Virus record (IMG/VR): IMGVR_UViG_2609460236_000001
Coordinates: 1-64,000 of that record
Direction: 5' to 3' (one strand)
Origin: a virus
Taxonomy: Duplodnaviria > Caudoviricetes
DNA length: 64,000 nucleotides
Positions 5,972-55,119 of this stretch are shown here, one piece after another (position 1 is the stretch's first letter; every line of letters starts with the position of its first letter). The position numbers and the translations under genes are program-made. The notes beneath the pieces are model-generated. The model searched no databases. It worked only from the letters and a program-made list of their open reading frames with translations, and was not told the DNA's origin.

Positions 5972-6018
5972 CTTGTCTTCAGGGCCGGTGGTGGTCGGCC
6001 CTTCCTACGTGTGGTGGT

Positions 6019-6597
6019 TTACGAGTTGCGAGCGTCCAGACCGCCCTTGTCCGCGCGCGCTTCAGCGGCGGCATTCGTGTATGCGTTCGGGAAGCGCTGC
6101 TTCAGCTTCGCGATGTTCGCGGACATGACTTCTTCGAGAGGCATATCGAGCGCATCGCAAGCATGGGCCACGCCGCTGAGGATGTTCACGAGGCTGCGCA
6201 TCGCACCCGTGCGGGCGCGCGCGTCTTGATGCAGCGGCACGTCGTACGTGAAGAAACCGATCTCGACCGAGATGCGATTCGCCACGATCTGGAGCTGTTC
6301 CGCGAGCGGTAGCGCGCTGAGGTCGAAGTCGAAGAGATGCTGGTATTCGGGGATCTCGAAGTCGAGGGCGTCGGCGCCGATGGCCACGTACCAGAGGATG
6401 TCACCCAGCTCTTCGAAGATGTGTTCGCGCATCTCCTGCGTGAGCGGCTTCTGGTACGCCCAAAGGCGTTTGACTTCGGTGGTGAACTCGCCATGTTCAG
6501 TCGTAAGACCAAGCGATGCGTGTTGCAGGCGCAGCAGAGAAGTTGCCAGGGGTTTCTCGGTGCGAAGGGCCAGAGGTTTGTATTGTTCGAAGTTCAT
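6019..6597 (-). CDS. MazG-like NTP pyrophosphohydrolase
   Basis: GLTTEHGE...EELGDILWY and C-terminal NIAKL..RFP. Confidence 0.85.
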   Translation of the reverse strand: MNFEQYKPLALRTEKPLATSLLRLQHASLGLTTEHGEFTTEVKRLWAYQKPLTQEMREHIFEELGDILWYVAIGADALDFEIPEYQHLFDFDLSALPLAEQLQIVANRISVEIGFFTYDVPLHQDARARTGAMRSLVNILSGVAHACDALDMPLEEVMSANIAKLKQRFPNAYTNAAAEARADKGGLDARNS

Positions 6598-6598
6598 T

Positions 6599-6946
6599 TT
6601 AGTAAGTCTCGGGTGGTGCGGTAAACCAGAGTCGGCGCGGAACAGGACGTTCGACAGGCATCGCGTATTGGATGATCATGTCGCCATCTCGAACCTGAAC
6701 CATCGTGATCAGCCCTTTGTCGTGCTTCTCACGTGCGCTTGCCAGAATCCGTTCAAACCTTTCATTCCAGCGGCGTTCCGCAGGGTACTTGCGCGCAATG
6801 ATGAAGGCGTAATTTCCAGGGTTTCCCCAGCCGAAGAGTTCCATTTTGTTCATCTCTTCGACGACACGTTCCAGGGTGGTGTCAAGGAACGTGGCAATAA
6901 GCTGGGGGGTGAAGTTTTGATCAAGTAGCGTTTTGATGGACTCCAT
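6599..6946 (-). CDS. Hypothetical protein
   Basis: 115 aa, GAGG RBS, packed in operon. Confidence 0.7.
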   Translation of the reverse strand: MESIKTLLDQNFTPQLIATFLDTTLERVVEEMNKMELFGWGNPGNYAFIIARKYPAERRWNERFERILASAREKHDKGLITMVQVRDGDMIIQYAMPVERPVPRRLWFTAPPETY

Positions 6947-6953
6947 TAATTCC

Positions 6954-9981: not shown

Positions 9982-10049
9982 GATTCACAACCTAGTGAAG
10001 TGGTGGTGCAGCACGCCGTAGCGCGCTGCTCTCTCGGTTGCGCTACCGC

Positions 10050-11073: not shown

Positions 11074-11150
11074 TTTTCTTTTACTGATGTGGTGGTGGTG
11101 TGCTAAGCATTATATGGAGATAACCACCGAAGAAGTTCGGCGACTATATG

Positions 11151-12440: not shown

Positions 12441-12601
12441 GATTGGTCCTTCGTGGTGGTGGTGTTCTTCAGGGTTGCCAGTTCGTGGTCTTTTTCTTGG
12501 ATCAGCTGCAAGAGGTCCAGCACGACCCGCGGAATACACATCTTCCGCAGGTCGTTGCGCTGCTCACGCGTCAGATCATGGAGCGTGAGCTTCGTCTTCA
12601 T
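12368..12601 (-). CDS. Hypothetical protein
   Basis: 77 aa, ATGA coupling with the upstream ORF; overlaps the ligase start. Confidence 0.5.
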   Translation of the reverse strand: MKTKLTLHDLTREQRNDLRKMCIPRVVLDLLQLIQEKDHELATLKNTTTTKDQSCTALTASWPSAVGPHLASRRRKP

Positions 12602-15689: not shown

Positions 15690-15711
15690 GTTTTGATCCT
15701 TGTGGTGGTGG

Positions 15712-16488
15712 TCACATCATGAAATCTGAAAGGATGTGGTTGATCGCTTTGTCGTCGTGCTGGCCGACAACCAGATGCTTTGCGATCAGGTCCGGGTCAA
15801 CTTCGTAGAAGCCCGTGATCTCCCACATGCCTTTCAGTGCTGCTTCGTTTTCCTTCACCCACGCCAGCGGCTTCTTGCCGAGGTTGAAGGAGCCGGCTTC
15901 ACTATCCCAGCAGGGCACGTAGCCCTCGGTGAAGAACTGCATCCAGCGTTCGCGGTCGCAGTGCTCCCACGCCACGTCGCCGAAACCGGGGATGCCGGTG
16001 ATCTTGTCGGACTTGTCACCGACGAGCGTCTTGTACAGGCGCACTTCGGTGAAGTCGGTGTTGTCGTACTCGACCTTGTCGCGCCCTTCGAGCTTCGTGT
16101 GCTTGCCGTCGCACAGCGCGAGGTAGTCGCCGTCAGTCGAGTGGATGGTGATCGAGTCGGTCTGGTCCTTGTAGAGACGATGTAGTGTGGCGATAACGTC
16201 GTCTGCTTCCCATGCGGGGATCTCAAGCGACATGCAGCGCGTGAAGCGCAGCACCTGCTTGAACAGGTCCATCGTCTTGTAGAACTCGTCTACGGCGCTT
16301 TGCCGGCCAACCTTGTATCCGGGGTAGAGCGCGCGGCGTCGGTCCTTCGCGCCGTGTCCATCCCAAATCCAAATGATGGTGTCGAACATCGGCAGCATCT
16401 TCATGTCGACCAGCACGTTGCGAATCGACCCGCTGGTTTCAAAGATGGTGCGGAAACGGTTGTTTCCGTCGATGAAATGCAAACCCAT
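15712..16488 (-). CDS. 5'-3' exonuclease / flap endonuclease (T5 D15, PolI N-terminal-like)
   Basis: IDGNN, WDG, RR..YP.YK..R, EADD, STDGD, GDKSDKITGIPGFG. Confidence 0.92.
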   Translation of the reverse strand: MGLHFIDGNNRFRTIFETSGSIRNVLVDMKMLPMFDTIIWIWDGHGAKDRRRALYPGYKVGRQSAVDEFYKTMDLFKQVLRFTRCMSLEIPAWEADDVIATLHRLYKDQTDSITIHSTDGDYLALCDGKHTKLEGRDKVEYDNTDFTEVRLYKTLVGDKSDKITGIPGFGDVAWEHCDRERWMQFFTEGYVPCWDSEAGSFNLGKKPLAWVKENEAALKGMWEITGFYEVDPDLIAKHLVVGQHDDKAINHILSDFMM

Positions 16489-17269: not shown

Positions 17270-17418
17270 AAAATTCCTTCAAATGTTAGCTGTTTATGCG
17301 TCTGTTTCTGCTTCTGCTTCTGCTCTCTCGCCGTGGTGGTGGACACGTCGAGGAATAAGATCGTACCTTCGTGATACTAACTACACAATGCTGCTCTATA
17401 CGATAGATCGCGCCCTCC

Positions 17419-18864
17419 TTACGCGAATTCGGCCATCGAGATCTTCTGATCAGTAGCCTCGGTTGAATCGAACATTTCCTCTTCCTTCTGCCGGCGCTGT
17501 TCCGACAACCTGAAGACTTCCTTCGTCGGGTCGACGAGGTTTGCATCACGCGACTTGTTCTCGATGATCTGCATGATCCGCTGGTCGATGGAGTCGCGAT
17601 ACTCCAGCACGTAGATCCGCAGCGGTCTCGCGCGCTTGCCACGGATGCCCCGGCGATACGCCTGCACGAATGAGTCGTCCATGTAGTTCAGTGAAGTGAA
17701 GACCATCGTTTCAAGGTGGTGCCAGTTGAAGCCGACACCGGCCGTATCCGGCGATGCAACCACGCAGTCGAGATCACCGCGGCGAAACGCCTCGTCGATG
17801 CGTGCCCGCTGCGTCGATGACACGTGGCCGTTGATCAACGCAGTGCGCAGGCCCATCGACTTCGCAATGGCGACGATGCGCTCTTGCTCGGGCACGAGCG
17901 CGGCGAACACCGCGATCGGTTCCCCGGACACAACCGCGTCCGCAAAGTGGATCTTCAAGCGCTCGTCCTTGCCGGTCGTCTCACCCTTGGCCAGCCCGAA
18001 GGTCTCGGGGTGCGCCATGATCTGCCGGCAACGCATCGCATTGACGGCGGGCGACTGGCCTTCAAGGAACTCGTCTTCCAGCTCAACGAGCGCCATTTCC
18101 TCCATCTCCTCGTACGCCTTGCGCTGCTTCGGCGACATGTCGCACAGCTCGGTGACGATGACCTTCGCTTCGGGGCCGTGAACCTCTTCGAAGGTGTGGC
18201 GCACGGCCACGTGCTGAAGGATCTGGCCAAGTCTCTGATGGTTGTGCCATCCGATCGTCGTGCCATACTCGTCCTGAAGTCGGTGTTGGGCCAGGAATGC
18301 ACCGTACGTGCCGTAGAAGCGCGGCTCGATCACCTGTAGCGCGGGGTACGCACTCGCGAGCGTGCCCTTGATGATCGTGCCCGTCATGGCCATGAAGCGC
18401 TCGATGCTCCGCATCGCGATGTACATGTTTTGCGTCCGTCCCGAGTCGTGGCCCGAGTAGCCAAGGTGCCACTCGTCGAAGATCGCGGCGTTCAACTGGG
18501 GGTGCCATTGCTTCATCCGTTGCCAGTCGTCGGAGAAGCGCTGGAACCCCATGATGAATACTTTCGCATCTTCGTTGCGCATCTGACGCTCGCGCCGTTT
18601 CGCCTCACCGTCGATGATCTGGATCTCACGAGGATGAAAGTTCGTGAATTCAAGCAGCTCGTCCTTGTTCTTCCGCAGTAGCGACATCGGCATGACGAAG
18701 TACGACTTGAATCCCAGCTCGTCCCACAGGTACTGCGTGTACATGCAGGCCGAGCCAGTCTTCTGCGTCGCCGGGTCCGACAGGTTCATACAGCGAGGCG
18801 TCATGATGTAGAAAGCGAGATCCGCGATCTGGTGCTCGCGCGGCACTTTCTTCTCGATCGTCAT
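17419..18864 (-). CDS. SNF2-like superfamily 2 helicase
   Basis: PREHQ, degenerate Walker A DPATQKT, DEWH, MTGT, AGVGFN, QAYRRGIRG. Confidence 0.88.
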   Translation of the reverse strand: MTIEKKVPREHQIADLAFYIMTPRCMNLSDPATQKTGSACMYTQYLWDELGFKSYFVMPMSLLRKNKDELLEFTNFHPREIQIIDGEAKRRERQMRNEDAKVFIMGFQRFSDDWQRMKQWHPQLNAAIFDEWHLGYSGHDSGRTQNMYIAMRSIERFMAMTGTIIKGTLASAYPALQVIEPRFYGTYGAFLAQHRLQDEYGTTIGWHNHQRLGQILQHVAVRHTFEEVHGPEAKVIVTELCDMSPKQRKAYEEMEEMALVELEDEFLEGQSPAVNAMRCRQIMAHPETFGLAKGETTGKDERLKIHFADAVVSGEPIAVFAALVPEQERIVAIAKSMGLRTALINGHVSSTQRARIDEAFRRGDLDCVVASPDTAGVGFNWHHLETMVFTSLNYMDDSFVQAYRRGIRGKRARPLRIYVLEYRDSIDQRIMQIIENKSRDANLVDPTKEVFRLSEQRRQKEEEMFDSTEATDQKISMAEFA

Positions 18865-19148
18865 TTGTTCCTGCTCCTATCTCGAAAGTCCCAACGTTGC
18901 CATTCGTTATCCGGCAGCTCACTCTTGACCTGTCTGCCTGCCCACTTTGCGAACGTCTCACGTGTCACGACCGGATAACGTCGTCCGATTCCCACGGCGG
19001 GACCGTCATAGGTGATCGCACCGAGAAAGTTGATGTGGATGATCACCCGGTCGTTCACAAACCCGTTGGCGTTTGAAGGACGCTTTGCGCGCCACACCTG
19101 CCCAACGTGGAATGTCTTGCTTTCTTCCAGTGTTGTCCTATCGTTCAT
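18861..19148 (-). CDS. Hypothetical protein
   Basis: 95 aa, coupled to the helicase start. Confidence 0.65.
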   Translation of the reverse strand: MNDRTTLEESKTFHVGQVWRAKRPSNANGFVNDRVIIHINFLGAITYDGPAVGIGRRYPVVTRETFAKWAGRQVKSELPDNEWQRWDFRDRSRNK

Positions 19149-19179
19149 TTCGATTCTTCGCTCCGATTAGGAGGTCGTC

Positions 19180-19347
19180 ATGAATTGGCTCTGCATCAAG
19201 TGCCACCTTGAATTCCCGTTCGATGCCGAAAAAGTCGGAATCGACTCGTTCGGCATCTACGTGTTCTGCCCACACTGCGGCCGGCGCAACAAGCTCATCA
19301 ACATCGGGAAGCGCGGCCATATCGTTCTTCAGCAGACGGGCACGTAA
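19180..19347 (+). CDS. 55-aa zinc-ribbon protein (below the ORF-track cutoff), antisense to the operon
   Basis: AGGAGG at 19169-19174, ATG 19180; MNWLCIKCH...VFCPHCGRRNKL has two CxxC; fills the gap between two minus-strand genes. Confidence 0.8.
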   Translation: MNWLCIKCHLEFPFDAEKVGIDSFGIYVFCPHCGRRNKLINIGKRGHIVLQQTGT

Positions 19348-19351
19348 CGGA

Positions 19352-19708
19352 TCAGGTCAGCAACCCCGACACGTTCGTGAAGTAGCTGTGCATCTGACGC
19401 AGAAGACGCAACTGCTCGCTCGTCAACACGCGCTTGGATAGTTCGTGGCCAAGGTGATAAACGGCCTTGATCATGTACTCCCGCGGATATGACGGGCCGA
19501 AGCTGTAGAGACGAACGTTGTGCCCAACCCGGTAATACGACGGCACCGTGTTGTTCCAGATCATCTTCAGCGTGTTGAACACGTGACGGGTCTCCATCTT
19601 TGCCGGATCGTGCCTATCGCCGTGCCGGTCGCGCCAGCGGAACGTGACGTCGATATGCGTCCGGCGCTCGATATGCGTGCGGAGTTCGACTGCGGTGCTC
19701 ATGCTCAC
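19352..19708 (-). CDS. Hypothetical protein
   Basis: 118 aa, GGAGG RBS. Confidence 0.7.
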   Translation of the reverse strand: MSMSTAVELRTHIERRTHIDVTFRWRDRHGDRHDPAKMETRHVFNTLKMIWNNTVPSYYRVGHNVRLYSFGPSYPREYMIKAVYHLGHELSKRVLTSEQLRLLRQMHSYFTNVSGLLT

Positions 19709-21064: not shown

Positions 21065-21178
21065 GTTTCGATCTCTTATAGATTGAAGGTTGCTGTTCAG
21101 GTGGTGGTGACACCCGTTGCTACGGTGAGCCTTTACGGAAAGCGTGGTGGTGGGGCGCTTACCGTGAGGCTTTACTGC

Positions 21179-21648: not shown

Positions 21649-21911
21649 GCCTTCACCTTCGTGCGTCGGAGTTCATCGCGCAGGCGCTTCAGGCGCGCGA
21701 TCTGCTTCTTGGCCAGTTGGCCAGAGTTGATCGTGTTCGCGACGGCCGAGTACCACGTATCACGTGAAATCGGGGACTCGGTGCCTTGGTCGTCGGCGAC
21801 CTTCACGTTTGAGAACTTGCGGAGTGCTTCGCCGGTCTTGACCAGTGCGTCGACAGCTTTGGGTACATCGGCCAGGGGGTGAGGTCTCGCCTCTGTGGTG
21901 GTGATATTCAT
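21645..21911 (-). CDS. Hypothetical protein
   Basis: Likely start MNITTTE at 21911, coupled on both sides. Confidence 0.6.
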   Translation of the reverse strand: MNITTTEARPHPLADVPKAVDALVKTGEALRKFSNVKVADDQGTESPISRDTWYSAVANTINSGQLAKKQIARLKRLRDELRRTKVKA

Positions 21912-22207: not shown

Positions 22208-22423
22208 CTATCGCATCTCGATCTTCGCGCCGTCCGGTATGTAGCCCACCGGCAGCACAAAGAAGCCCTTGATGACGCGAAGCTTTTCCAGCGTCTTCAT
22301 GGTCCGAACCCACGCGTCTAGCACACACTCGTGGGTGAAATACTTCGGCTCCATGTGGTTATCCAGGTGGTGGACCTGTATCACCTGCGGCGGATTCAAC
22401 AAGGTGCCCTTTTCCGATGTCAC
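22208..22423 (-). CDS. Hypothetical protein
   Basis: AAGGAGG RBS before GTG. Confidence 0.6.
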   Translation of the reverse strand: MTSEKGTLLNPPQVIQVHHLDNHMEPKYFTHECVLDAWVRTMKTLEKLRVIKGFFVLPVGYIPDGAKIEMR

Positions 22424-24280: not shown

Positions 24281-24694
24281 TTACTGCGTCTTCAGCAGCG
24301 TCGGTTGGAGCTTGTAGTGCTTCGAGAGGTACGTCAGGATCGCATCGCCATGCTCCGCCAGGTTGGCCAGCAGTTGCTCTTCGGTCGCTGCGACCGGCAG
24401 AGCGTAACCTTCGGTGATCACGTTGCCGTCCGCGCCCTTCACCGGCTCGATGTGAACCGGTTTCACGCCGTGCAGCATGAAGTCAACGATCTTCTTCAGC
24501 GACGTGGTGCGTTCGGCGACGAACGCTTCACGAGCCTTCTGCTGCTCCTGGAAGCGGGTTTCGTCCGCGGCCGACCAGTTCGATGCAGCCTTCGGAGCGC
24601 CGCGCAGCGCGCGCGGGGACTTGCCGTCATTGCCGCCTTTATTCTTCTTCGGAGCAGCGGAGTTCTTGGTCGTGGTGGTGGGTTCCATCTTCAA
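24281..24694 (-). CDS. Hypothetical protein with basic N-terminus
   Basis: 137 aa, AAGGA RBS, biased codons, followed by a terminator. Confidence 0.7.
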   Translation of the reverse strand: MKMEPTTTTKNSAAPKKNKGGNDGKSPRALRGAPKAASNWSAADETRFQEQQKAREAFVAERTTSLKKIVDFMLHGVKPVHIEPVKGADGNVITEGYALPVAATEEQLLANLAEHGDAILTYLSKHYKLQPTLLKTQ

Positions 24695-24749: not shown

Positions 24750-25130
24750 TCAGGTACGGCCTCTCATCGACACGGGTAGCAATCCCGCGGCGATGAGATG
24801 GTTCAGGACAACGGCCGGCGTAGAAACCGGGAACGTCCTGACACATTCGCTGAGACCCAGTGCGATGGCATCGATGGCCTTTTTACGCACAGTCGCAGCT
24901 TCAGCCTCGCTGTGTCGCGGGAGGTAAGGCACGAGCGCGCGGCAAATCTGCTCTGCCCGCTCGATCAGGCCGTCCGTGATGTCGGTCTCGCTGATGTCGC
25001 GATAAGCAAACGTGCTCACGACGGCTTCGACAGACGCCCGCTGATGGGCCTCTACTTCTTCCTTGCGCGATGCCAGTTCGCGCAGCAGACGCTCGTCGTC
25101 GTCCGTCCAGGTTGTGGTGGTGGTGGTCAT
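24750..25130 (-). CDS. Hypothetical protein
   Basis: 126 aa, begins MTTTTTT. Confidence 0.65.
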   Translation of the reverse strand: MTTTTTTWTDDDERLLRELASRKEEVEAHQRASVEAVVSTFAYRDISETDITDGLIERAEQICRALVPYLPRHSEAEAATVRKKAIDAIALGLSECVRTFPVSTPAVVLNHLIAAGLLPVSMRGRT

Positions 25131-28081: not shown

Positions 28082-28159
28082 CGTTGTTGTGGTGGTGGTT
28101 TGTTAGCAGATTCGGTGAACGAGGCGCGTGGCCAGACGCGCCTCGTTCAACTTGAACTT

Positions 28160-28390: not shown

Positions 28391-28412
28391 GGTGATTACC
28401 TCGGTGTGGTGG

Positions 28413-31367: not shown

Positions 31368-31392
31368 GGTGTGTGGTGGTGATGGGGGGTAT

Positions 31393-32585: not shown

Positions 32586-32600
32586 GTGTTGATCCTTGGT

Positions 32601-34933: not shown

Positions 34934-34959
34934 GTTTTGATCCGTGGTGGTGAATCGTT

Positions 34960-35178: not shown

Positions 35179-35819
35179 GCTGGCACTCCCTCGCGCTCCT
35201 CACGCACCCTGTCGTAGCTCGGGTCGCTGTACTTCGCGAAGAGATGCGGGAACGCTTCCTCGATTCGTCGACAGTTCGACATGTCAGCGTTGATCCATGC
35301 GTGGGCGATCTTTCGGGCGAACTCGCCCGCAAAGTCCCGCATGTTGAATGCCATCCGTTGCCGATCCGCGTATGGTCGCGATGAGATCGGATGCGGACGC
35401 TGCTTCAGGCACATGCGACCATGCTGTGCGTACATGGCTGCGAGACGCTGTTCGTGGGTCTCCTGCATACCTGCGAAATGCTCGAGCATCGCCGTCAGGT
35501 GGAGAATCACGTCACGTTCGTTGAGGGATTCGGCTCGATCGGTTACGGTCCGCTGGTCCTCCAGCTCGTAATACCAGGCCTTGCGCAGACGCGGGCCGTC
35601 CTCGTGGTTCTTGATGACCATGCCGCACTGCTTGGCCATGTTGTCGATGAGCACGTCGAGCGGCAGGTTCACGTCGCGTTGTTCATCGTTCAGTTGCTCG
35701 AACACGCTTGCAGTAAGCACGATCTGCAATGCACGTTCGACGTAGGGTGCGCGCTGGCCAGCATCGCTCATCATCTCTTCGAAACTTTCAAACGGGCCGT
35801 AGGTGGTGGTGTTGCCCAT
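35175..35819 (-). CDS. Hypothetical protein
   Basis: Start MGNTTT; C-terminal M....G.FA..IA.AW..AD..N..RI..AFP.LF.KY. Confidence 0.7.
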   Translation of the reverse strand: MGNTTTYGPFESFEEMMSDAGQRAPYVERALQIVLTASVFEQLNDEQRDVNLPLDVLIDNMAKQCGMVIKNHEDGPRLRKAWYYELEDQRTVTDRAESLNERDVILHLTAMLEHFAGMQETHEQRLAAMYAQHGRMCLKQRPHPISSRPYADRQRMAFNMRDFAGEFARKIAHAWINADMSNCRRIEEAFPHLFAKYSDPSYDRVREEREGVPA

Positions 35820-35836
35820 GATGTTTGATCCTTGGT

Positions 35837-36746: not shown

Positions 36747-36942
36747 GGTGGTGGGTTCTCTTCAGGGAATGCAGGCCGATCTATGTCAGCTCGCGAACAC
36801 GGTCAAGATCGGTCGAATATCCTGCTCGCTGTCTTCACGCGACTTGAACAGTTCGTCGATTGCGTCAAACAGCTGGGGGGCTTCGGAATAGATAGCGTTC
36901 ATGGTCTTCGTCGTTTCTTCTTGTTGGTTCTCAGGCGATGGT

Positions 36943-37350
36943 TCAAGTTGAACCTATCGGGTATGGGTCGACTTCCTGAAACAGCGCGTGGTGAAACACA
37001 TCGTGCAGGTAGGCCTTGATGCTGTTCCGGTTACGGCCAGTGATCCGGATAACAGCCCCCGTGTCGAGCGATGGCGTGACGATCACGTGGTGTTCCGACC
37101 ATCCGTCGTACATCCCGTGTCGGTTCATGTGGTGAAAATCAGCTTGAAATACCAGCTTGTTGCTCTTGCATTCGTCTTCGAGCAGTTGCGTGCCCGAGTC
37201 AAGGCCCGAGCCTGAAGGAAGCATGTCGAGCAGCTTTCCGAGACGTACTTTGTGGGTTGGAAGGACAGGGCTGCGCGCGGACTTGCAGCGCTCGATAGTC
37301 GCGAGCGTGGACGCAATCGCGGCATAAAGCGGCGTGGTGGTGGTGATCAT
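36943..37350 (-). CDS. Hypothetical phage protein
   Basis: LPSGSGLDSG...FHHMN..GMYDGW.EH.V.VTPSL; ends IGST* inside a palindrome. Confidence 0.75.
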   Translation of the reverse strand: MITTTTPLYAAIASTLATIERCKSARSPVLPTHKVRLGKLLDMLPSGSGLDSGTQLLEDECKSNKLVFQADFHHMNRHGMYDGWSEHHVIVTPSLDTGAVIRITGRNRNSIKAYLHDVFHHALFQEVDPYPIGST

Positions 37351-38840: not shown

Positions 38841-39000
38841 TGGAATTCTCCGGATGGTTCAACTTGCACTTTTCATCCAGTTTCTGGATCAAGCCGCCTA
38901 CTGGGCGCTACTACGCCTGCCGTAGAGGCATGACCGGATTCGTGGATGTGGAGCTGCCCCAGCGACGGGCGCATGAGCGGTAGCGCCGGCCCCTATAGGG

Positions 39001-39043
39001 AGAAGAAAAAGGAACGACTCACGCCACCACGCGCGAGTCGTTC
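39001..39043 (-). terminator. Rho-independent terminator with a GUGGUG loop
   Basis: GAACGACTCGCGC-GTGGTG-GCGTGAGTCGTTC then CTTTTTCTTCT on the minus strand. Confidence 0.75.
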
Positions 39044-39078
39044 AAACCCGCCCAGTCTGGCAACTAGGCGGGATTGAC

Positions 39079-39837
39079 TTATGCCGCTACCGTCTCGGTG
39101 TCAGCGACTGCGATATCCAAGGCTGCTGCTGCCTGAACGTCAGCGAGGATCGTTTGCGCAAAGAACTGCCGATCCGCATCGGACATGCCAGCCATAACCG
39201 CACGCACGGATTCGGCGAAACGTGCCGCGTTTTCGCGTGACACGTCCGCAACGCTGCGGTTATCGGCTTCTTTCACCTCTGCGGCCGTCGCTTGTGCAGG
39301 CTGTGCATCGCTCGCGGGCGCTTCAGTCGTGCCGCTCGTCACTTCAGACGGAGTTTTTGCGGTTGCGCCTTTCGGTTCGCGATTACCCGCCGCTTTCGCG
39401 AAACCAAACGCGGCAAACAACGCGTCTTGCGACGTGCAACCCATGCCGAGCAGCCAAGCGCGCACGATACCGGCCGCATCTTCATCTTTCTCAGCATTCG
39501 CAATTTCAGTCACAGGCGCACCCTTATCAGCCGCTTGTTTCGCAATGCCAACCGACTTTTCAGCGTAGCGCTTCGCGGTCGGAAACGCGGCACGCGTTGC
39601 GCTTACGCGATCGGCCGCGCCCATCTCCACCCACTTTTTACCGGCGCGTTGCTCGGCGATTTGCTCGCTCAAAACGTCAATCAAGCGGGCCGCATAGCCG
39701 CGCGCCCCGTGATTGTCGTCCCGAAGGCAGAGCGCGACGATTGCCGAGTAAGCGCGCGTGATTGCGCTGCGCTCCGTGCCGATGATTTCTTTAGCGGCAT
39801 AGGTTGCCGCGCCCGTTGCGATTTGAAAGTCAGCCAT
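39079..39837 (-). CDS. Ala-rich hypothetical protein, first gene of the leftward accessory block
   Basis: 252 aa, AGGGG RBS, two palindromic sites upstream. Confidence 0.75.
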   Translation of the reverse strand: MADFQIATGAATYAAKEIIGTERSAITRAYSAIVALCLRDDNHGARGYAARLIDVLSEQIAEQRAGKKWVEMGAADRVSATRAAFPTAKRYAEKSVGIAKQAADKGAPVTEIANAEKDEDAAGIVRAWLLGMGCTSQDALFAAFGFAKAAGNREPKGATAKTPSEVTSGTTEAPASDAQPAQATAAEVKEADNRSVADVSRENAARFAESVRAVMAGMSDADRQFFAQTILADVQAAAALDIAVADTETVAA

Positions 39838-40306: not shown

Positions 40307-40882
40307 ATGACGATGGAGAAAGAGAAACTAAAGCGCCAGGACTTTACGGTTGAAATGGCCCGCGAGCACTTTGGTTACGACCCAGTAGCAGGTCGCGCTA
40401 TTCGTCTGACTAATAGCGCCAGGGGACCGCGCTCGGCTGGAAAAGTAGCAAGTTGCCCACACAAACCGTCAGGCTTCAGACAGATTGTTTTCAAAACCAT
40501 TTCGATATATGAACACCACATGGTGTGGGCACTTGTCTATGGGTATTGGCCCACCGGCTCGATTCGCCATCGCGACGATGACAAACAAAACAACCGGATC
40601 GAGAACCTGTTTGACCCCTCTCAAGTTGTAACCGTAAGTAACTTTGCAGATACGAAAGACGCTTTCCCTGGGGTCATCGTCACTAACTCCGGAAACTACA
40701 GGGCGACCATTTATCGAGATAAGGCAATCCATCTCGGCACGTTCTCAAGCCCTGAAGAAGCGCACGAGATGTACCTTGCAGCTAAAGTCGTTCTTCATAG
40801 TCCGCTTAACAGAGGAGTAAGTACCGATGAACTGTTAAAACCTCTTTTGATAAGCCGAAAGGGACTTGCCAAGGTAGGTTGA
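40307..40882 (+). CDS. HNH endonuclease with AP2 DNA-binding domain
   Basis: EHHMVW.L.YG.WP...IRH.D.DKQNNRIENL; GV...YRATI...HLGTF.SPEEA...Y..AK; lower GC. Confidence 0.85.
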   Translation: MTMEKEKLKRQDFTVEMAREHFGYDPVAGRAIRLTNSARGPRSAGKVASCPHKPSGFRQIVFKTISIYEHHMVWALVYGYWPTGSIRHRDDDKQNNRIENLFDPSQVVTVSNFADTKDAFPGVIVTNSGNYRATIYRDKAIHLGTFSSPEEAHEMYLAAKVVLHSPLNRGVSTDELLKPLLISRKGLAKVG

Positions 40883-41027
40883 GACAGGTAAAGTTAACAG
40901 AGTGCTTGATGATCTGTGGTGGTGAGTCAAGCATGACGAGTTGAGAGACTTGTCTCAGACAGTTGAGGTGGCCAGCCTCTCTGTCAGCCCTCTTCAGGGG
41001 CATGTTTTGATCAATGTTAGCTGTTAG

Positions 41028-43634: not shown

Positions 43635-44175
43635 TCGAAGACTCTTGTGTGGTGGTGGACGCAGCGTCATCGTCGGAGCGACGAGTGGTGACTACGCTGC
43701 GCAGGCGTTCCATGACCTCGGTGCGCTGATCCGGCGACATGCACTCTTCCATGATGCTCAGGACGGTGTCTTGGAAGTCGCGGATCTGCTTGATCCCCAA
43801 CGCGCGCTCACGAGCTGTCACCAGACGTTCGAGGAGGCTGGTCGCCGTGCGGAAGTACGCCATGCGCTCCGTCTGATCGGATTGAGGGATGGTCTTGCCG
43901 TAGTTCTTCAGGTCGGTGAAGACTCGATACAGGTCGATGTCGAGACTCGAATCGATCTGGTCCTCGGTGATCTCGAAATCCGCTATGTCGACCTTCTTTT
44001 GTTCAGGTTGAACCTGACGATGAATCAGGTTCGAGATCACTTTCTTGAAATCGACACCGTAGGGGCATGCTTCATCGGCGAGGTAGGCCGCGTTCTCCGT
44101 GGCCAAGGTAAGGATCATCTTGATCGACCACTCGACATGATCAGTAATGACCGGATAATGAAAGTCGTTGCTCAT
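43624..44175 (-). CDS. Helical hypothetical protein (possible terminase small subunit by position only)
   Basis: 183 aa, divergent from terL. Confidence 0.6.
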   Translation of the reverse strand: MSNDFHYPVITDHVEWSIKMILTLATENAAYLADEACPYGVDFKKVISNLIHRQVQPEQKKVDIADFEITEDQIDSSLDIDLYRVFTDLKNYGKTIPQSDQTERMAYFRTATSLLERLVTARERALGIKQIRDFQDTVLSIMEECMSPDQRTEVMERLRSVVTTRRSDDDAASTTTQESSNEN

Positions 44176-44380: not shown

Positions 44381-46165
44381 ATGCCAAACCAGTATCTCCA
44401 ACAGCTCTACGAACGCGCAGCGAACCGCTGGTCGAAAGACCGCGCGTCGATGACGTATGGCGACTGGATCTGCGAGAACACCACGCACAACGACAGAGCC
44501 TTCTCGTTCAAGCGTTACCCCTTCCAGAAGCAGATCGCGGACGACATGCACGACAACCTCGACTGCATCAAGCCGTCGCAGGTTGGTCTGACCGAAGTGC
44601 AGATCCGCAAGGTGCTCGCGTTCATAGCTCGCAACCGTGGCGTAAACGTCATCTACACGCTGCCCGACGAGACTATGATGGAGCGTATCTCGGTCGGCCG
44701 CGTTCGACCGCTCGTCGACGAGGAACACGCATTCAACCTTGAATCCCTCGGTGGCAAGAAGCCGACGCGCACTAAAGAAATCATTCAGGTCGGCAAGAGC
44801 TTCCTCTACCTCACCGCTGCCGGCGAAGGGGCCGCGACATCCATCTCCGCAGACATGGTCGTGAACGACGAAGTGGACTTGACCGACCAGTCGATGCTTG
44901 CCCTCTTCAACTCGCGACTTCAAGGCTCGGACTGGAAACTGAACCACCGATTTTCGACGCCGACCTTCCAGGACTACGGCATCGACCAGACATTCAAGGT
45001 CAGCGACCAGCACGAGTACATGCTCAAGTGTGCTTGCTGCAACCACTGGCAGGTGCCCGACTTCGAGCGCCCGTTCGTCCGAATCCCTGGCCTTCCTGAC
45101 AGTCTCGACTTCGAGGAAATCGACGAAGCGATGATCGACGCCGGCGCGATCGACCTCGACGCCGCCTCGATCCACTGCGAGCACTGCGGTGCGCCCCTGA
45201 ACCTTGGTAACCATGAGCGCCGTGCATGGGTGCCAAAGTACCCGCAACGCAAGCATGCGCGCGGCTACCGCGTGCGCGCCTTCTCTACCGAGCGCCTACC
45301 GCCCAAGTACATCCTGCGGCAGCTCTTCATCTACAAGCGCAAGGACTTCATCCGAGGCTGGTACAACACCGTGCTTGGGCGCTCCCACACCGGGGGCGAC
45401 CAACGCCTGAACGACGCGGATATCAACGCAGCCTTCACCGAGTTCCAGCTGGTCCGTCCGTCGAGCAACACGATGCCGGCGTGGCTCGGCATCGACATCG
45501 GCCAGACCTGCCACATCGTCGTCGGCGAGGGCTACGACGTGTCGTCGATCCACGTGGTCGAGTTCCTGACCGTGCCAGTCGGCCGCTTGCTGGAGGAGAT
45601 CGCACGCATCCTGACCGCGTATCGCCTCGTTGCCGGTGGCTGTGACCGTCACCCGTACACACCGACCGCCGAGGCGGTGCGTGACGTGTCACATCGCCGC
45701 GTCCTGCCGAACGAGTACCGTGGCTCCAAGGAAATCAATCTCGTCAAGGACCCTGCCGGCGAGATCACGCACATGCAGTCCAACCGGACGCTGCTCCTCG
45801 ACGAAGTGGCCCGAGCCATCCGGCTGCGCAAGATCAAGTTCTCCGGTTACGGGACGCACCGCTCGGCGATCGTTGAGCACCTGAAAGACATGGTTCGCAA
45901 TGAAGAACCAGAGAAAGAAGCGGAATGGAAGAAACTGAACGGCAACGATCACTTCTTCCATGCGTTGGGTTTCATGTTGTCTGCCGTGAAGCTGCACACC
46001 ACCAACGCATCCGCCCTTTTCAACACGGAAACGCGCAGCGTCATCCAGATCGTCGGCGCGACCGTGGGCATGAACGAGACCAGTCAACTCATGCTGGCCA
46101 ATACCAAACACACCACTGGCAACTTGATCTATGGCAACGACCACCACCCCCAACTCTTCTTCTAA
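44381..46165 (+). CDS. terL: Terminase large subunit (lambda GpA-like)
   Basis: KPSQVGLTE, VVNDEVD, STPT, CxxC/CxxC, GIDIG and NDHFFHA nuclease motifs. Confidence 0.88.
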   Translation: MPNQYLQQLYERAANRWSKDRASMTYGDWICENTTHNDRAFSFKRYPFQKQIADDMHDNLDCIKPSQVGLTEVQIRKVLAFIARNRGVNVIYTLPDETMMERISVGRVRPLVDEEHAFNLESLGGKKPTRTKEIIQVGKSFLYLTAAGEGAATSISADMVVNDEVDLTDQSMLALFNSRLQGSDWKLNHRFSTPTFQDYGIDQTFKVSDQHEYMLKCACCNHWQVPDFERPFVRIPGLPDSLDFEEIDEAMIDAGAIDLDAASIHCEHCGAPLNLGNHERRAWVPKYPQRKHARGYRVRAFSTERLPPKYILRQLFIYKRKDFIRGWYNTVLGRSHTGGDQRLNDADINAAFTEFQLVRPSSNTMPAWLGIDIGQTCHIVVGEGYDVSSIHVVEFLTVPVGRLLEEIARILTAYRLVAGGCDRHPYTPTAEAVRDVSHRRVLPNEYRGSKEINLVKDPAGEITHMQSNRTLLLDEVARAIRLRKIKFSGYGTHRSAIVEHLKDMVRNEEPEKEAEWKKLNGNDHFFHALGFMLSAVKLHTTNASALFNTETRSVIQIVGATVGMNETSQLMLANTKHTTGNLIYGNDHHPQLFF

Positions 46166-47793: not shown

Positions 47794-48921
47794 ATGGCTA
47801 AGAGCGTTCCGATCACACAAAGAATTCAGAATCTGATCACCCGCAATAGCGGGGGTGATCAGGTCGACTTCAGCGCGATCGTCGTGTTCGAGGCCTCGGT
47901 CACTAACACGCGCCCGTTGACGAAGCCCGGTTCGATTTTCGACAAAGGCCAGATCCAGGTCGACACGCTCAACCAGATGGCCAGCTACCTCAACAGTGGC
48001 GGCTTCGTCCCCCTTCAGACCCTTCACCCGAACGGAGACGAACTCCCCCTCGGTCGTTTTTTCTACGGTGAAGTCCTCCCGTCGACGCTCGGTGACGGAT
48101 CGAGCGAACTGGTCTGTCTTTTCTACTTGCCGAAAGACGACTCGAATGTCCCTAAGCTCGAAAACGGAATTATCGACGAAGTCAGCGTCGGTTTTGTCGG
48201 TCAACAACTGCTCTGTTCGAAATGCAGCTGGGACTGGCGCGGTCCGGAAGCCAGCTTCTCAAACTTCTACGACCGCGTGTGCGGGAATGATCACGTGCTC
48301 GGCGAAGACGGCGCGTATCTGAAGATCAACGGGCTGGATCGCTGGACTGAAACATCGCTCGTGTCGAAAGGCGCGGCGAACAACGCGAAGATCTTGGGCC
48401 GCACGAAGCAGCGGCTCGGCCAAGAGCAGTACGACCGCTTGGCAGCTTCGGGCGTCGCACCCGAGCATTTGATGCTGATTGCCACCACCACCACATCCCC
48501 TCGGAGTCCGAAGACGATGGATAAGGAACTGATCGAAGAACTGGCCAACCTGAAGGCTGGCCAAAAGATCCACGAACACACGATTTCGCTGAAAGACGCA
48601 GAAATCACGGCGCTCAAGACGACCAACGAGGCGTTGAGCACCGAGAACAAGACGCTGAAGGAAGGCACCGAGCTGAAGGCTGCGCAAACCTCGCTGGCCG
48701 AGTCGCAAGCGAAGGTGACGGAGCTGGAAGCTTCGGCAAAGACTGCTGAAACCGAGGTCGCCGATCTGAAGGCGAAGCTCGCGACCGCAGAAGCGCAGGT
48801 TGAAGTCCTGAAGGCGGGCGCTGGCAACGGCGGCCGCTCACAAGGTTCCGACACCGGCACTGGTGCAACGAAGGGGACGACGCTTCACGCGTCGAGCGCG
48901 TTCAAGTCCGCGCCGCGTTAA
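47794..48921 (+). CDS. Prohead protease with C-terminal coiled-coil scaffold
   Basis: LH...LPLGR, EVSVGF, CSKC, ETSLV..GA; heptad-rich C-terminus with possible internal start MDKEL. Confidence 0.75.
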   Translation: MAKSVPITQRIQNLITRNSGGDQVDFSAIVVFEASVTNTRPLTKPGSIFDKGQIQVDTLNQMASYLNSGGFVPLQTLHPNGDELPLGRFFYGEVLPSTLGDGSSELVCLFYLPKDDSNVPKLENGIIDEVSVGFVGQQLLCSKCSWDWRGPEASFSNFYDRVCGNDHVLGEDGAYLKINGLDRWTETSLVSKGAANNAKILGRTKQRLGQEQYDRLAASGVAPEHLMLIATTTTSPRSPKTMDKELIEELANLKAGQKIHEHTISLKDAEITALKTTNEALSTENKTLKEGTELKAAQTSLAESQAKVTELEASAKTAETEVADLKAKLATAEAQVEVLKAGAGNGGRSQGSDTGTGATKGTTLHASSAFKSAPR

Positions 48922-49380: not shown

Positions 49381-49469
49381 GCAGATGACCTCGCCCACCA
49401 CCGGGGTCATCTGCTGGAAAAGCTGCAAAACCCTCGTCAGTTCCGACCACCACCGGGCTGACGAGGGTT
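49381..49469 (+). promoter_or_regulatory. Tandem hairpins with NCCACCAC loops in the major capsid leader
   Basis: 49381-49414 (loop CCCACCAC) and 49429-49469 (loop ACCACCAC). Confidence 0.8.
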
Positions 49470-53745: not shown

Positions 53746-53777
53746 TGCGTGGTTCCTCCATATACCAATAAAAACCT

Positions 53778-53806
53778 TTGATTCGCGAAGGTATCACACG
53801 TAGGAT
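53778..53806 (+). promoter_or_regulatory. Sigma70-like promoter for the tail tube gene, divergent from the Arc gene
   Basis: TTGATT-17-TAGGAT. Confidence 0.55.
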
Positions 53807-53840
53807 CGCTCCACCAGAATTTTAAACCGGAGAACTAACG

Positions 53841-54632
53841 ATGGCTGGTGAAGCAAAGTCCGAGAAGTTCATGCTGGGGTCGGCCACCGTGATGATCGGC
53901 CCCCAAACTGACCTGTTCAACCTCAATCCCGACGAGCACTCGATCGGTCTCGTGAAGAACTTCACAATCAGTGGCCAGCCGGCATACACCGAGCTGACGC
54001 AGGGCGTGAAGAACAGCGTTGTGTACTCGGTGATGACCGGCAACCCCGTCACCGCCACGATGGAAGTATTCGAGCACACGTCGAAGAACCTCGCGTACGG
54101 CTTGGGTCTCGACGGTTCGGCGCTGACGCCGTCCACGGTCAAGACCACGCTGAACGCAGACGTGCCTGCGAACGCCGCCGGCGCGGACACGCTGCCGGTC
54201 GCATCAGCCACCGGCTTCGCGGTCGGCGACTGGATTCAAGCGATCGTGCCTGGTTACAGCGACCGTATGCTCGTCGCCAAGGTCAAGACTATCGATTCGA
54301 CGGCGAAAACGCTGCAAGTCGTCAGCTCGCAGAAGTTCGACTACCAGTTGCCGAACGGTACGGTAGTCCAGAAGGTCAACGTGGTGGGTATCGGCTCGAA
54401 GGCTAACCAGCCGTTCCTTGCCGCGAAGGTGGTCGGCAACCTCGCCGACAACACGCCGGTTGCGCTGCTGATTCCCAAGATCCGCATCACGGGTGGCTTC
54501 ACGCTGGCGTTCAAGACCGACGCGTTCGGCAACCTGCCGTACAAGTTCCAGCCGTACGATCTGGTCTCGACGGACCCGTTCTACGACGACTTCCTGCCGT
54601 TCGGGCAAGCGATGCTGGCGTCGGCAAACTAA
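53841..54632 (+). CDS. Major tail (tube) protein
   Basis: 263 aa, strong codon bias, GGAG RBS, followed by a hairpin, chaperones and tape measure. Confidence 0.75.
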   Translation: MAGEAKSEKFMLGSATVMIGPQTDLFNLNPDEHSIGLVKNFTISGQPAYTELTQGVKNSVVYSVMTGNPVTATMEVFEHTSKNLAYGLGLDGSALTPSTVKTTLNADVPANAAGADTLPVASATGFAVGDWIQAIVPGYSDRMLVAKVKTIDSTAKTLQVVSSQKFDYQLPNGTVVQKVNVVGIGSKANQPFLAAKVVGNLADNTPVALLIPKIRITGGFTLAFKTDAFGNLPYKFQPYDLVSTDPFYDDFLPFGQAMLASAN

Positions 54633-54668
54633 GGTTCACGCCGGTACGGAGAAAAACCTTGAAGCACC

Positions 54669-54700
54669 AATCCCCACGACACATAATCGTGGGGATTTTT
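54669..54700 (+). terminator. Terminator overlapping a sigma70-like promoter (TTGAAG-17-CATAAT, 54659-54687)
   Basis: AATCCCCACGA / TCGTGGGGATT plus T-run. Confidence 0.7.
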
Positions 54701-54717
54701 CATTCGGAAACCAAAAC

Positions 54718-55119
54718 ATGTCGACCACCACCACGCGACAAGCCCCGCCCGCAAAACTCGACGTCACTCTGGCCGGCGAGAAGAAGAGCTTGTTCATGTC
54801 TTTTGGCTTGCTCAACGAACTGTGCCGGGGCATTGGCGATGCTCAAGGCGCATTGCAAGTCACGGCAAACTCTCAACTTCGTGATTTCGCCTTGATGGTT
54901 GTGCTTTCCGATCGAGACGAAGAAGGCAACGTCGTCAAGCCGATCAACGTCAATCGAATCGAAATGTCCATCGAAGACGGTGAACGTTTGCTCGACTGGG
55001 TGGCGCAGCACGCAACTGATTTTTTCGTGCGGACGATGGAGAGAATCGTCACGGGACACAAGGACAAGGAAACCCGGTTGAAGGCCCTGAAAGAGTTGGC
55101 CGAAAACCCGGCAAGCTAA
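54718..55119 (+). CDS. Tail assembly chaperone (gpG-like)
   Basis: Between tail tube and tape measure; slippery heptamer near its end. Confidence 0.75.
   Translation: MSTTTTRQAPPAKLDVTLAGEKKSLFMSFGLLNELCRGIGDAQGALQVTANSQLRDFALMVVLSDRDEEGNVVKPINVNRIEMSIEDGERLLDWVAQHATDFFVRTMERIVTGHKDKETRLKALKELAENPAS

What the first reader, a model, noticed from the sequence alone, without database searches (positions are those of the whole stretch)
5981..54740. Phage-wide family of leader hairpins with an NCCACCAC loop: candidate post-transcriptional regulon
Seen, read on the coding strand: thyX AGGGCCG-ACCACCAC-CGGCCCT (5981-6002); 62-aa gene before polA TGTG-ACCACCAC-CACA (15701-15716); SSB CTCGaCGTG-TCCACCAC-CACGgCGAG (17327-17352); KTSC leader twice (21098-21116, 21128-21171); GATTC-ACCACCAC-GGATC (34939-34956); capsid leader twice (49381-49414, 49429-49469); chaperone start TGTCG-ACCACCACCACG-CGACA (54719-54740); weaker at the primase start (43648-43663). 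Stem sequences are unrelated, while the loop is mostly 8 nt and usually closed by G-C. Orientation flips with transcription direction. Established: constant-loop hairpins mark RNA-binding-protein sites (CsrA GGA loops, lambda boxB, MS2 operator). Inference: a phage or host factor reads these loops to set translation, processing or antitermination of replication and virion genes. I do not recognise this motif from a described system.
Basis: partly seen in the sequence, partly recalled or inferred. Interest (0 to 1): 0.9.

Follow-up and report, generated by a model that had tools for sequence, protein, structure and literature searches.

The report
Phage start-codon word CCACCAC
An 81-kb Burkholderia prophage writes the short word CCACCAC on the messenger strand next to about one start codon in five, sometimes in the loop of a small hairpin, which looks like a private and so far undescribed translation-start signal whose reader is unknown.

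Summary
The motif is real. CCACCAC occurs 53 times in the window against 6.8 expected. It is the commonest 7-mer on the sense strand of the prophage, 52 sense against 5 antisense. It is the most start-associated word: 21 of 36 merged sites lie -40..+15 of motif-blind starts, where 8.5% of positions do.

9 of 36 sites sit in an MFE hairpin loop. Where a hairpin exists, the loop is exactly N+CCACCAC and is closed G-C. At the capsid leader the stems covary among relatives.

The common denominator is a single-stranded exact word beside the start codon. It lies 0-25 nt before ATG or as Thr codons just after it, mainly at genes with weak Shine-Dalgarno sites.

The word is conserved at orthologous genes in IMG/VR relatives. 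It is absent from the related phage JWF, from host genes and from three other Burkholderia phages. It recurs in the unrelated Rhizobium phage 16-3.

No reader was found. This scan found the same word earlier on other DNA. My full-text searches found no paper describing it.

The parts
1619..1628 (+). CCACCACCAC 15 nt before the ATG (1644) of the tyrosine integrase, with no SD between. A second copy lies at 1652-1658, 8 nt after the ATG.
5981..6002 (-). Hairpin AGGGCCG[ACCACCAC]CGGCCCT, 9 nt before the ATG (5971) of the thymidylate synthase-family gene. A bare copy lies at 6011-6017.
   Evidence: (7-bp stem, matched by 3 of 200 shuffles). The orthologue in L049 keeps it.
10000..10006 (-). Bare word directly 3' of a 9-bp hairpin, 19 nt before ATG 9981 (Metallophos, SbcD-like).
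11089..11098 (-). Bare run 15 nt before ATG 11073 (RecU-like); no SD.
12453..12462 (-). Bare run abutting the SD GAAGGA, before ATG 12440 (ATP-dependent DNA ligase).
15702..15711 (-). Bare run abutting AAGGATCAAAACATG (62-aa gene, ATG 15689). The claimed 4-bp stem is not in the MFE.
17327..17352 (-). Hairpin CTCGaCGTG[TCCACCAC]CACGgCGAG, about 60 nt before ATG 17269 (237-aa gene, unnamed). The stem differs in L048 and L049.
21098..21171 (-). Two copies in the leader of the KTSC gene (ATG 21064). 21144-21153 lies in an 11-nt loop of a long stem. 21101-21107 is partly paired.
21895..21901 (-). Word as Thr-Thr codons 7 nt after ATG 21911 (M N I T T T). The start overlaps the upstream stop (ATGA).
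22367..22373 (-). Word 12 nt before ATG 22354, inside the end of the upstream gene.
24672..24681 (-). Run just after ATG 24688 (M E P T T T T).
25114..25126 (-). Run directly after ATG 25130 (M T T T T T).
28089..28098 (-). Run 7 nt before ATG 28081; no SD.
28406..28412 (-). Word directly after the upstream stop, 15 nt before ATG 28390.
31373..31379 (-). Word 5 nt before ATG 31367, in the SD position; no SD.
34944..34950 (-). Word abutting GGATCAAAACATG (ATG 34933).
35803..35809 (-). Word 7 nt after ATG 35819 (M G N T T T).
36748..36754 (-). Word 1 nt before ATG 36746, in the SD position.
37334..37343 (-). Run 4 nt after ATG 37350 (M I T T T). Orthologues in L043 and L044 carry it 9-10 nt before the start instead.
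40880..40960 (-). Covarying 6-7 bp stem with an invariant 17-nt loop CUCACCACCACAGAUCA, in the 1.2-kb non-coding gap 3' of the primase gene. Role unknown.
43649..43658 (-). Run 14 nt before the primase ATG 43634, inside the end of the upstream gene. Kept in all relatives read.
46141..46147 (+). Word 7 nt after the portal ATG 46131 (M A T T T T).
48482..48494 (+). Run inside gene 47794-48921, 22 nt before the in-frame ATG 48517, with GGAG between. Candidate nested start (inference).
49382..49413 (+). Capsid-leader hairpin 1, loop CCCACCAC, 15-bp stem.
   Evidence: (matched by 0 of 200 shuffles)
49434..49465 (+). Capsid-leader hairpin 2, loop ACCACCAC, about 16-bp stem with a bulge, 31 nt before the capsid ATG 49497.
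   Evidence: (z -6.5)
54725..54734 (+). Run 4 nt after ATG 54718 of the tape-measure chaperone (M S T T T T). In L008 and L010 it lies before the ATG.

Best explanation
CCACCAC (core CACCAC, often ACCACCAC or longer (ACC)n) is an RNA-level start-associated signal of this JWF-related Burkholderia prophage and its close relatives.

It must be on the mRNA strand. It must be single-stranded, either bare or held open in an 8-nt hairpin loop closed by G-C. It must lie within about 25 nt of the start codon, usually directly 5' of the Shine-Dalgarno site, in place of it, or as Thr codons just after ATG.

Shown: exact-word specificity, strand polarity, start association, single-strand display, stem covariation, conservation with positional turnover at orthologous genes, and absence from host genes.

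Inferred: it acts in cis on translation initiation, most likely positively, by recruiting or holding the 30S subunit at genes with weak or missing SD.
For: Start association:
- 53 sites against 6.8 expected.
- 52 sense against 5 antisense; it is the commonest sense 7-mer.
- 21 of 36 merged sites lie -40..+15 of motif-blind starts, where 8.5% of positions do, binomial p 5e-14.
- 29 of 36 lie within -110..+15, two of them by hand-corrected starts.
- ACCACCAC is the most start-associated 8-mer, 27 of 42 near starts, ahead of every SD word.

Specificity:
- The exact word is near a start in 32 of 52 cases. The 21 one-mismatch variants together give 23 of 126. A/C-only variants are not enriched, for example CAACAAC at 3 of 19.

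Single-strand display:
- Unpaired probability is 0.83 in native sequence against 0.67 with shuffled flanks, n=29, Wilcoxon p 1e-4.

Hairpins:
- The loop register is exact.
- On 19 capsid-leader hairpins from 11 loci plus the window, the covariation score is 0.487 against 0.237 in shuffles (reached by 0 of 500). There are 44 cells changed on both sides against 19. Slid controls score at most 0.24.

SD link:
- Median anti-SD duplex energy is -3.25 kcal/mol for 12 genes with the word upstream and -3.7 for 7 genes with it downstream, against -5.6 for 81 other genes (one-sided MWU p 0.02).
- Several sites lie 0-8 nt from the ATG, where an SD would be.

Orthologues:
- Against relative R10: 9 both, 2 window only, 3 relative only, 26 neither (Fisher p 4e-5).
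- Against R47446: 9, 4, 2 and 27.
- The site moves from after to before the ATG at two genes.

Controls:
- JWF shows only SD words, and 0 of 12 orthologues carry the motif.
- In host genes, 14.7% of CACCAC words are followed by a start. That equals the reverse-complement background.

Independent lineage:
- In Rhizobium phage 16-3, CACCAC is followed by GGAG-N4-10-RTG in 21 of 68 cases, against 0 of 36-68 for four control words.
Against: There are no expression, ribosome or binding data, and no RNA run was listed.

The direction of the effect rests only on the modest SD difference (p 0.02, with crude start calls) and on which genes carry the word.

No complement of the word exists in 16S rRNA of a same-genus genome. 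There is one GUGGUGG near the 5' end of 23S.

No clade-specific protein with a recognisable RNA-binding domain was found.

Three unrelated Burkholderia phages do not use the word systematically. This argues against a general host enhancer. Use of the same word by 16-3, which shares no detectable protein with this prophage, argues against a lineage-private reader.

Seven of 36 sense sites are not near a start.

R10 and R47446 are related to each other, so they are not independent.
Confidence: 0.6

Rival explanations
1. Translational operator regulon. A phage-encoded RNA-binding protein binds the word at the initiation regions of about 25 genes and represses or times their translation, as T4 RegA or a coat-protein operator does. 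The hairpin loops would be the high-affinity sites.
For: - The exact word is required.
- The 8-nt loop is constant under covarying stems.
- Some leaders carry double sites: capsid, KTSC and thymidylate synthase.
- The system is present in one subclade and absent from JWF and from three other Burkholderia phages.
- Clade-specific basic proteins of unknown fold exist: p116 at 19352-19702, p68, and p126 with its Arg-rich stretch.
Against: - No candidate has an RNA-binding domain or a fold match.
- Targets span integrase, early, replication and virion genes, which is odd for a temporal repressor.
- The word sits where the SD is weak or missing.
- Phage 16-3 uses the same word yet shares no detectable protein.
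Confidence: 0.2
2. RNA processing or stability signal. An endoribonuclease cuts at or beside the word, or the hairpins act as 5' or 3' stabilisers. Mature gene-sized mRNAs would then begin just before the ribosome site, as with RNase III sites in T7 or RegB in T4.
For: - Sites lie between the upstream stop and the next SD.
- Long stems without a U-tract precede the highly expressed capsid gene.
- Several bare words follow a hairpin directly, for example at 10006.
Against: - Sites placed after the ATG would remove the start codon if cut.
- A cut site does not explain the link with weak SD.
- No data on RNA ends exist; no RNA run was listed.
Confidence: 0.12
3. DNA-level signal. It could be a strand-skewed octamer of the Chi or KOPS type that flips at the replication or transcription divergence point. 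It could also be stoperator-like repressor sites oriented with transcription.
For: - Strand polarity is strict and switches at about 44.2 kb.
- The element is a prophage that must be silenced.
- The complement GTGGTGG resembles the E. coli Chi core (recalled, not tested).
Against: - Sites are not spread along the arms but cluster at start codons (p 5e-14).
- Stems covary, which needs single-stranded nucleic acid.
- The word is not enriched in the host chromosome.
- The position moves across the ATG while staying beside it.
- Seven to eight bases is short for a DNA operator.
Confidence: 0.05
4. By-product of composition. Runs of the preferred Thr codon ACC at N-termini, and G/U-free spacers that merely keep the ribosome site unstructured, with no specific reader.
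For: - Downstream copies are read as Thr-Thr-Thr.
- The word cannot pair with itself and is mostly unpaired.
- A/C-rich tracts are known to help initiation in E. coli (recalled: CA-repeat work of Martin-Farmer and Janssen 1999, not read here).
Against: - Other A/C-only 7-mers and one-mismatch variants are not enriched.
- Upstream copies are in no fixed frame.
- The loop register is exact.
- JWF has the same composition and gene set but lacks the word.
- The word is conserved at orthologous genes whose flanks have diverged.
Confidence: 0.03

Closest known systems
[quoted passage not shown] 2011, PMC3203893, passages read; still untested in 2025 according to PMC12699233, passages read)
   Same: A short asymmetric word in one orientation, repeated 11-19 times per genome. 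It sits next to start codons of genes from unrelated families, is conserved across subclusters and is absent from the host genome.
   Different: SAS is 13 bp, contains the SD core AGGAG, sits 3-7 bp before the start and is confined to the non-structural half. Here the word is 7-8 nt and free of G and U. It is separate from the SD or replaces it, may lie after the ATG, and occurs in both arms and at the integrase. ESAS arms are conserved in sequence and their changes do not support RNA pairing. Here the stems covary and the loop is constant.
Phage translational operators (T4 RegA sites; T4 gp43 operator with an 8-nt loop; MS2 and PP7 coat-protein hairpins). Recalled, not read here.
   Same: Sequence-specific RNA sites at or overlapping initiation regions. 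RegA acts on many mRNAs. Constant loops sit on hairpins.
   Different: Those are repressor sites with known readers. Here no reader is known, the sign of the effect is unknown, most sites are unstructured, and there are about 30 sites per genome.
Lambda-type nut boxB hairpins read by the arginine-rich motif of N. Recalled.
   Same: A small hairpin whose loop sequence, not its stem, is recognised.
   Different: Nut sites number one or two per genome, lie downstream of early promoters and act on RNA polymerase. Here the sites mark individual start codons, including ones inside coding sequence.
Hfq/Crc 'CA motifs' (AANAANAA) at ribosome sites of catabolite-repressed mRNAs in Pseudomonas. Recalled.
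   Same: A short purine/C triplet-repeat word near the start codon of a regulon, read in single-stranded form.
   Different: That is a host regulon with a known reader, and it is A-rich. The host here shows no start association of the word.
CACCAC box 5' of GAGGAGAC in Rhizobium phage 16-3
   Same: The same six-letter core directly 5' of the SD of many genes, sometimes in or after a hairpin.
   Different: An unrelated temperate phage of an alphaproteobacterium. The SD there is strong, and copies after the ATG were not examined. No shared protein was found by tblastn.

Membership tests
SAS/ESAS (Cluster K mycobacteriophages) | 13-bp consensus GGGATAGGAGCCC containing the SD core | tested here: not met
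   The word is CCACCAC with no G. Consensus taken from PMC3203893.
SAS/ESAS (Cluster K mycobacteriophages) | One orientation relative to transcription; next to start codons; not used by the host | tested here: met
   52 against 5; 21 of 36 near starts; host at background.
SAS/ESAS (Cluster K mycobacteriophages) | Fixed place 3-7 bp before the start; confined to non-structural genes | tested here: not met
   Distances run from 0 to about 25 nt before the ATG and 1-8 nt after it. Portal, capsid and chaperone genes carry it.
SAS/ESAS (Cluster K mycobacteriophages) | ESAS: 17-bp inverted repeats conserved in sequence, whose changes do not support RNA pairing | tested here: not met
   Stems are unrelated in sequence and covary.
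Lambda-type nut (boxA/boxB with N) | One or two hairpin sites downstream of early promoters; an N-like protein with an arginine-rich motif | tested here: not met
   36 sense sites at gene starts. p126 has an Arg-rich stretch, but its N-terminus is shared with JWF, which lacks the motif. boxA was not searched.
Chi / skewed architecture octamers | Strand-skewed word spread along each replichore and over-represented in the host chromosome | tested here: not met
   The skew is present, but sites cluster at starts. Host density is 0.13 per kb, and host clusters are ordinary intragenic sites.
Cluster A stoperators | 13-14 bp double-stranded repressor sites oriented with transcription | tested here: inconclusive
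   Orientation fits. The 7-8 nt length, the stem covariation and the sites after the ATG speak against it.
Shine-Dalgarno-like rRNA-pairing enhancers | Complementarity to an accessible stretch of 16S rRNA | tested here: not met
   There is no GUGGUG in 16S of the same-genus genome G040. The 3' end is the ordinary GAUCACCUCCUUU. One GUGGUGG lies at 23S position 21. G000 itself has no assembled 16S.
Any Rfam family | Match at the gathering score | tested here: not met
   0 matches in the window. The only hit in the capsid leader at E<=1 is a chance miRNA model.

The most novel reading that the evidence does not exclude
CACCAC/(ACC)n is a second ribosome-recruitment word that works beside or instead of the Shine-Dalgarno sequence. 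It would be read by a conserved part of the proteobacterial initiation machinery, and used wholesale by several unrelated phage lineages (JWF-like Burkholderia prophages, Rhizobium phage 16-3) but not by their hosts. That would give the phage mRNAs a private channel to the ribosome.
Probability: 0.25. Interest if true: 0.9.

Novelty: new variant of a known kind. Interest (0 to 1): 0.7.

Why it matters
If the word recruits ribosomes, it is a sequence-specific initiation signal in bacteria that is independent of the SD. That would explain how phage genes without a visible ribosome site are translated. It would improve start-codon and nested-gene calling in phage genomes, for example the candidate internal start at 48517. 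It would also offer a compact, orthogonal expression part.

If instead it is an operator, it defines one of the largest phage translational regulons known, with a reader still to be found.

Either way it gives the long-unexplained start-associated sequences of phages a second example that can be tested. This one has RNA covariation, which the mycobacteriophage case lacks.

Tried and rejected
**rRNA or abundant-RNA partner.**
- 16S of the same-genus genome G040 has no GUGGUG.
- 23S has one GUGGUGG at position 21.
- RNase P RNA, 6S RNA and the tmRNA region of G000 lack even GGUGG.
- SRP RNA has one UGGUGG.
- 9 of 76 tRNAs hold a 6-mer, where I judged it to lie in stems.

**Phage antisense or small RNA.** The only non-coding anti-motif lies in the terminator-like hairpin loop at 39024. 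It is not conserved: L044 has 0 antisense sites, and L042 and L043 have one each at other places.

**Reader by gene content.** Ten proteins present in relatives but not found in JWF by tblastn gave 0 Pfam families and no informative PHROG.
- p116 occurs only in Burkholderia prophages and metagenomes.
- Its model (pLDDT 83.5) has no PDB match at E<=0.001.
- The ESM Atlas gave only unnamed viral clusters scoring below 0.9.

**Host-wide use.** None was found. Other motif-rich patches of the genome are ordinary intragenic sites.

**Relatives in cellular genomes.**
- 0 of 295 scored genomes of the host family hold the capsid gene. Five genomes were not scored.
- The genome-contig scan found none.

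**RNA-seq.** No RNA holder was listed.

**Rfam.** Nothing was found.

**Literature.** The full-text searches 'CCACCAC'+'phage' (33 papers, 15 listed; the listed titles and abstracts do not concern a phage start signal; texts not read), 'CACCAC'+'Shine-Dalgarno'+'phage' (1 paper, on RfaH ops) and 'Achromobacter phage JWF' (6 papers) found no description of the word. Only listings were seen for these. Supplements are closed and may hold motif tables that I could not see.

**Nested protease/scaffold reading of 47794-48921.** There is no Pfam hit and only a PHROG of unknown function. The nested start therefore stays an inference.
Full report
**Context.** The window is G000:C1:181566-245565 of an 8.6-Mb, 67% G+C genome.
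- A stretch of about 81 kb with 59% G+C runs from just before the window to about 17 kb beyond it.
- It is a prophage related to Achromobacter phage JWF, with 70% nucleotide identity over the terminase-to-capsid genes.
- A tyrosine integrase lies at 1644-2912.
- Genes run on the minus strand from about 4.1 to 44.2 kb and on the plus strand from 44.2 kb on, as in JWF.
- Homologues of one prophage protein are named by their sources as Burkholderia ubonensis and B. lata, so the host is a Burkholderia.

- CCACCAC occurs 53 times in the window against 6.8 expected, with a maximum of 18 in 100 shuffles.
- Density is 0.83 per kb against 0.13 per kb genome-wide.
- On the sense strand of the whole prophage it is the commonest 7-mer, 52 copies against 5 on the antisense strand.

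**What the sites share.** I called starts without looking at the motif, taking the first ATG of each chosen ORF.
- 21 of 36 merged sense sites lie between -40 and +15 of a start, where 8.5% of positions do (binomial p 5e-14).
- With a window of -110..+15 and two hand-corrected starts, the count is 29 of 36.
- ACCACCAC is the most start-associated 8-mer in the prophage, 27 of 42 near starts with p 3e-19. It is far ahead of the SD-derived words.
- The same analysis on JWF returns only SD words, so the method does not invent such motifs.
- 19 of 100 genes of at least 50 codons carry the word within -40..+22.

The word lies in one of three places:
- directly 5' of the SD, as in ACCACCAC-(0-1 nt)-AAGGA;
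- in the SD position itself, 0-8 nt from the ATG, with no SD;
- just after the ATG, read as Thr-Thr-Thr.

**Specificity.**
- The exact word is near a start in 32 of 52 occurrences.
- The 21 single-substitution variants together give 23 of 126.
- The only mild enrichment is for changes of the first C, so the core is CACCAC.
- Other A/C-only 7-mers are not enriched.
- Flanking positions carry little information apart from A at -1 in 60% of sites.

**Hairpins.**
- Only 9 of 36 sites sit in a hairpin loop in the minimum-free-energy fold of a roughly 65-nt context.
- The strong cases are the two capsid-leader hairpins, the thymidylate synthase leader, one KTSC-leader site and the 17342 site.
- Where a hairpin exists, its geometry is precise. 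A loop of exactly N+CCACCAC with a stem of at least 4 bp occurs at 44 of 258 sites in the prophage plus 15 relative loci, some of which overlap. Random 8-nt loops give 2.1%. For stems of at least 6 bp the figures are 19 sites against 0.33%.
- After removing duplicates there are 29 distinct hairpins.
- Whether in a loop or bare, the word is more unpaired than its composition predicts: 0.83 against 0.67 with shuffled flanks (n=29, p 1e-4).

**Relatives.**
- No relative was found in 295 scored genomes of the host family or in the genome collection.
- IMG/VR holds a graded series. Contigs with 79-99% capsid identity have 0.5-0.8 sites per kb. JWF-like contigs (74%) and more distant ones do not.
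- In these relatives the strand bias is 19:1, 14:0, 13:0, 10:1 and 12:1.
- The capsid leader keeps one or two hairpins whose stems are unrelated in sequence, while the loop stays NCCACCAC.
- On 19 such hairpins, 77% of cells pair against 61% in shuffles (reached by 0 of 500). There are 44 cells changed on both sides against 19. The covariation score is 0.487 against 0.237, and slid registers score at most 0.24. These rows were chosen by position, not by pairing, but they are related sequences.
- One relative (L009) has no hairpin there, and one (L026) has a bare copy in place of the second hairpin.

**Orthologous genes.** Motif status at orthologous genes is conserved, and positions shift.
- Against relative R10: 9 both, 2 window only, 3 relative only, 26 neither (p 4e-5).
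- Against R47446: 9, 4, 2 and 27.
- Against JWF: 0 of 12.
- At gene 37350 the site is after the ATG here and before it in both relatives.
- At the chaperone gene it is after the ATG here, and both before and after it in L010.

This combination fits a nucleic-acid signal tied to the start codon. It does not fit a protein motif or a DNA site.

**Link with the SD.** The median predicted anti-SD duplex is -3.25 kcal/mol for 12 genes with the word upstream and -3.7 for 7 genes with it downstream, against -5.6 for 81 other genes (one-sided p 0.02). The effect is modest and the start calls are crude.

**Who reads it?**
- The host does not use the word at its own genes.
- Three unrelated Burkholderia phages (BcepNazgul, Bcep22, BcepMu) show background values, with a few isolated cases. 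One of these precedes the annotated nested scaffold start of BcepMu.
- This, together with its absence from JWF, points to a lineage-specific reader.
Rhizobium phage 16-3 shares no detectable protein with this prophage, yet it places CACCAC directly 5' of its GAGGAGAC ribosome site. In 21 of 68 occurrences the word is followed by GGAG-N4-10-RTG, against 0 of 36-68 for four control words. By the ORF-based test, 24 of 68 are followed by a start, against a background of about 14%.
- No complementary RNA was found in rRNA, RNase P, 6S, SRP, tmRNA or tRNA loops.
- No clade-specific protein has an RNA-binding signature or a known fold.

**Rivals.**
- A Chi-like or stoperator-like DNA signal is contradicted by the clustering at starts, the stem covariation and the lack of host enrichment.
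- A pure composition effect is contradicted by the exact-word requirement and by JWF.
- A processing site and a repressor operator remain possible. The sites after the ATG and the weak-SD link make a positive role in initiation the best single guess.

**Comparison with what is known.**
- The nearest described thing is the start-associated sequence of Cluster K mycobacteriophages. Passages of PMC3203893 were read, and its function was still called unverified in 2025 (PMC12699233, passages read).
- The logic is the same. The word, its relation to the SD, its placement, its genome distribution and the nature of the associated inverted repeats all differ, so this is not a member of that family.
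- There is no Rfam family, and my three full-text searches found no paper describing the word.
- This scan has met the same word before on other DNA: notes e1-5845253, e1-6120158, e1-5845568, e1-5845554, e1-5902146 and e1-6205541. The present window is thus another member of a recurring signal that my searches did not find described.

Noticed in passing
window, at >=7 gene starts (e.g. 15689, 34933, 49497, 10652, 35819, 32585): A recurrent initiation cassette, AAGGATCAAAACATG, combines a weak SD with a fixed A/C-rich spacer. It is often directly preceded by the CCACCAC word.
   Followed up: partly
window ~35830-35860, ~32590-32620, ~38850-38870 (minus strand); L043 and L044 ~18200-19200: GTTCAACTTGAAC-type palindromes lie just 5' of the SD of early genes. 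Relatives carry GTGCAG-N2-4-CTGCAC plus a T-run instead. These palindromes are lineage-specific, unlike the clade-wide CCACCAC, and may be operators or weak terminators. Other first-reader notes (e1-6256510, e1-6230806) flag them.
   Followed up: no
window 39006-39045: The hairpin loop reads CCACCAC on the plus strand, which is GUGGUGG on the sense (minus) strand. A T-run follows on the minus strand. It is probably the terminator of gene 39079-39837. The anti-motif loop is not conserved in relatives.
   Followed up: partly
window 40880-40960 (minus strand): A covarying 6-7 bp stem carries an invariant 17-nt loop, CUCACCACCACAGAUCA. A GCTGGCCAC box lies about 45 nt upstream. The element sits in a 1.2-kb non-coding gap 3' of the primase gene. 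The exact 17-mer occurs in only 9 IMG/VR contigs, eight of them contigs of this clade already fetched and one short contig not examined further.
   Followed up: partly
window 48482-48519: A motif run and GGAG precede the in-frame ATG 48517 inside gene 47794-48921, which lies between the portal and decoration genes. This is a candidate nested (scaffold-like) start. BcepMu's annotated nested gp33 start is likewise preceded by CCACCACCAC and GGAG (L067 ~19481-19512).
   Followed up: partly
window 38460-38840 (minus strand): A 126-aa basic protein has an arginine-rich stretch (TRKRQRAAEARYRRE). Its N-terminus is homologous to JWF gp001/gp070, which lie in the terminal repeat. The function is unknown.
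   Followed up: partly
window 19352-19702 (minus strand): A 116-aa basic four-helix protein is conserved at about 70% identity in the motif clade. It was found only in Burkholderia prophages and metagenomes, and its fold matches nothing in the PDB.
   Followed up: yes
window 1-2912: This JWF-like phage is integrated and carries a tyrosine integrase, whereas the JWF record annotates no integrase. Relatives of JWF can therefore be temperate.
   Followed up: partly
The 'thyX' gene matches a PHROG labelled thymidylate synthase but no Pfam model at E<=0.001.
   Followed up: yes
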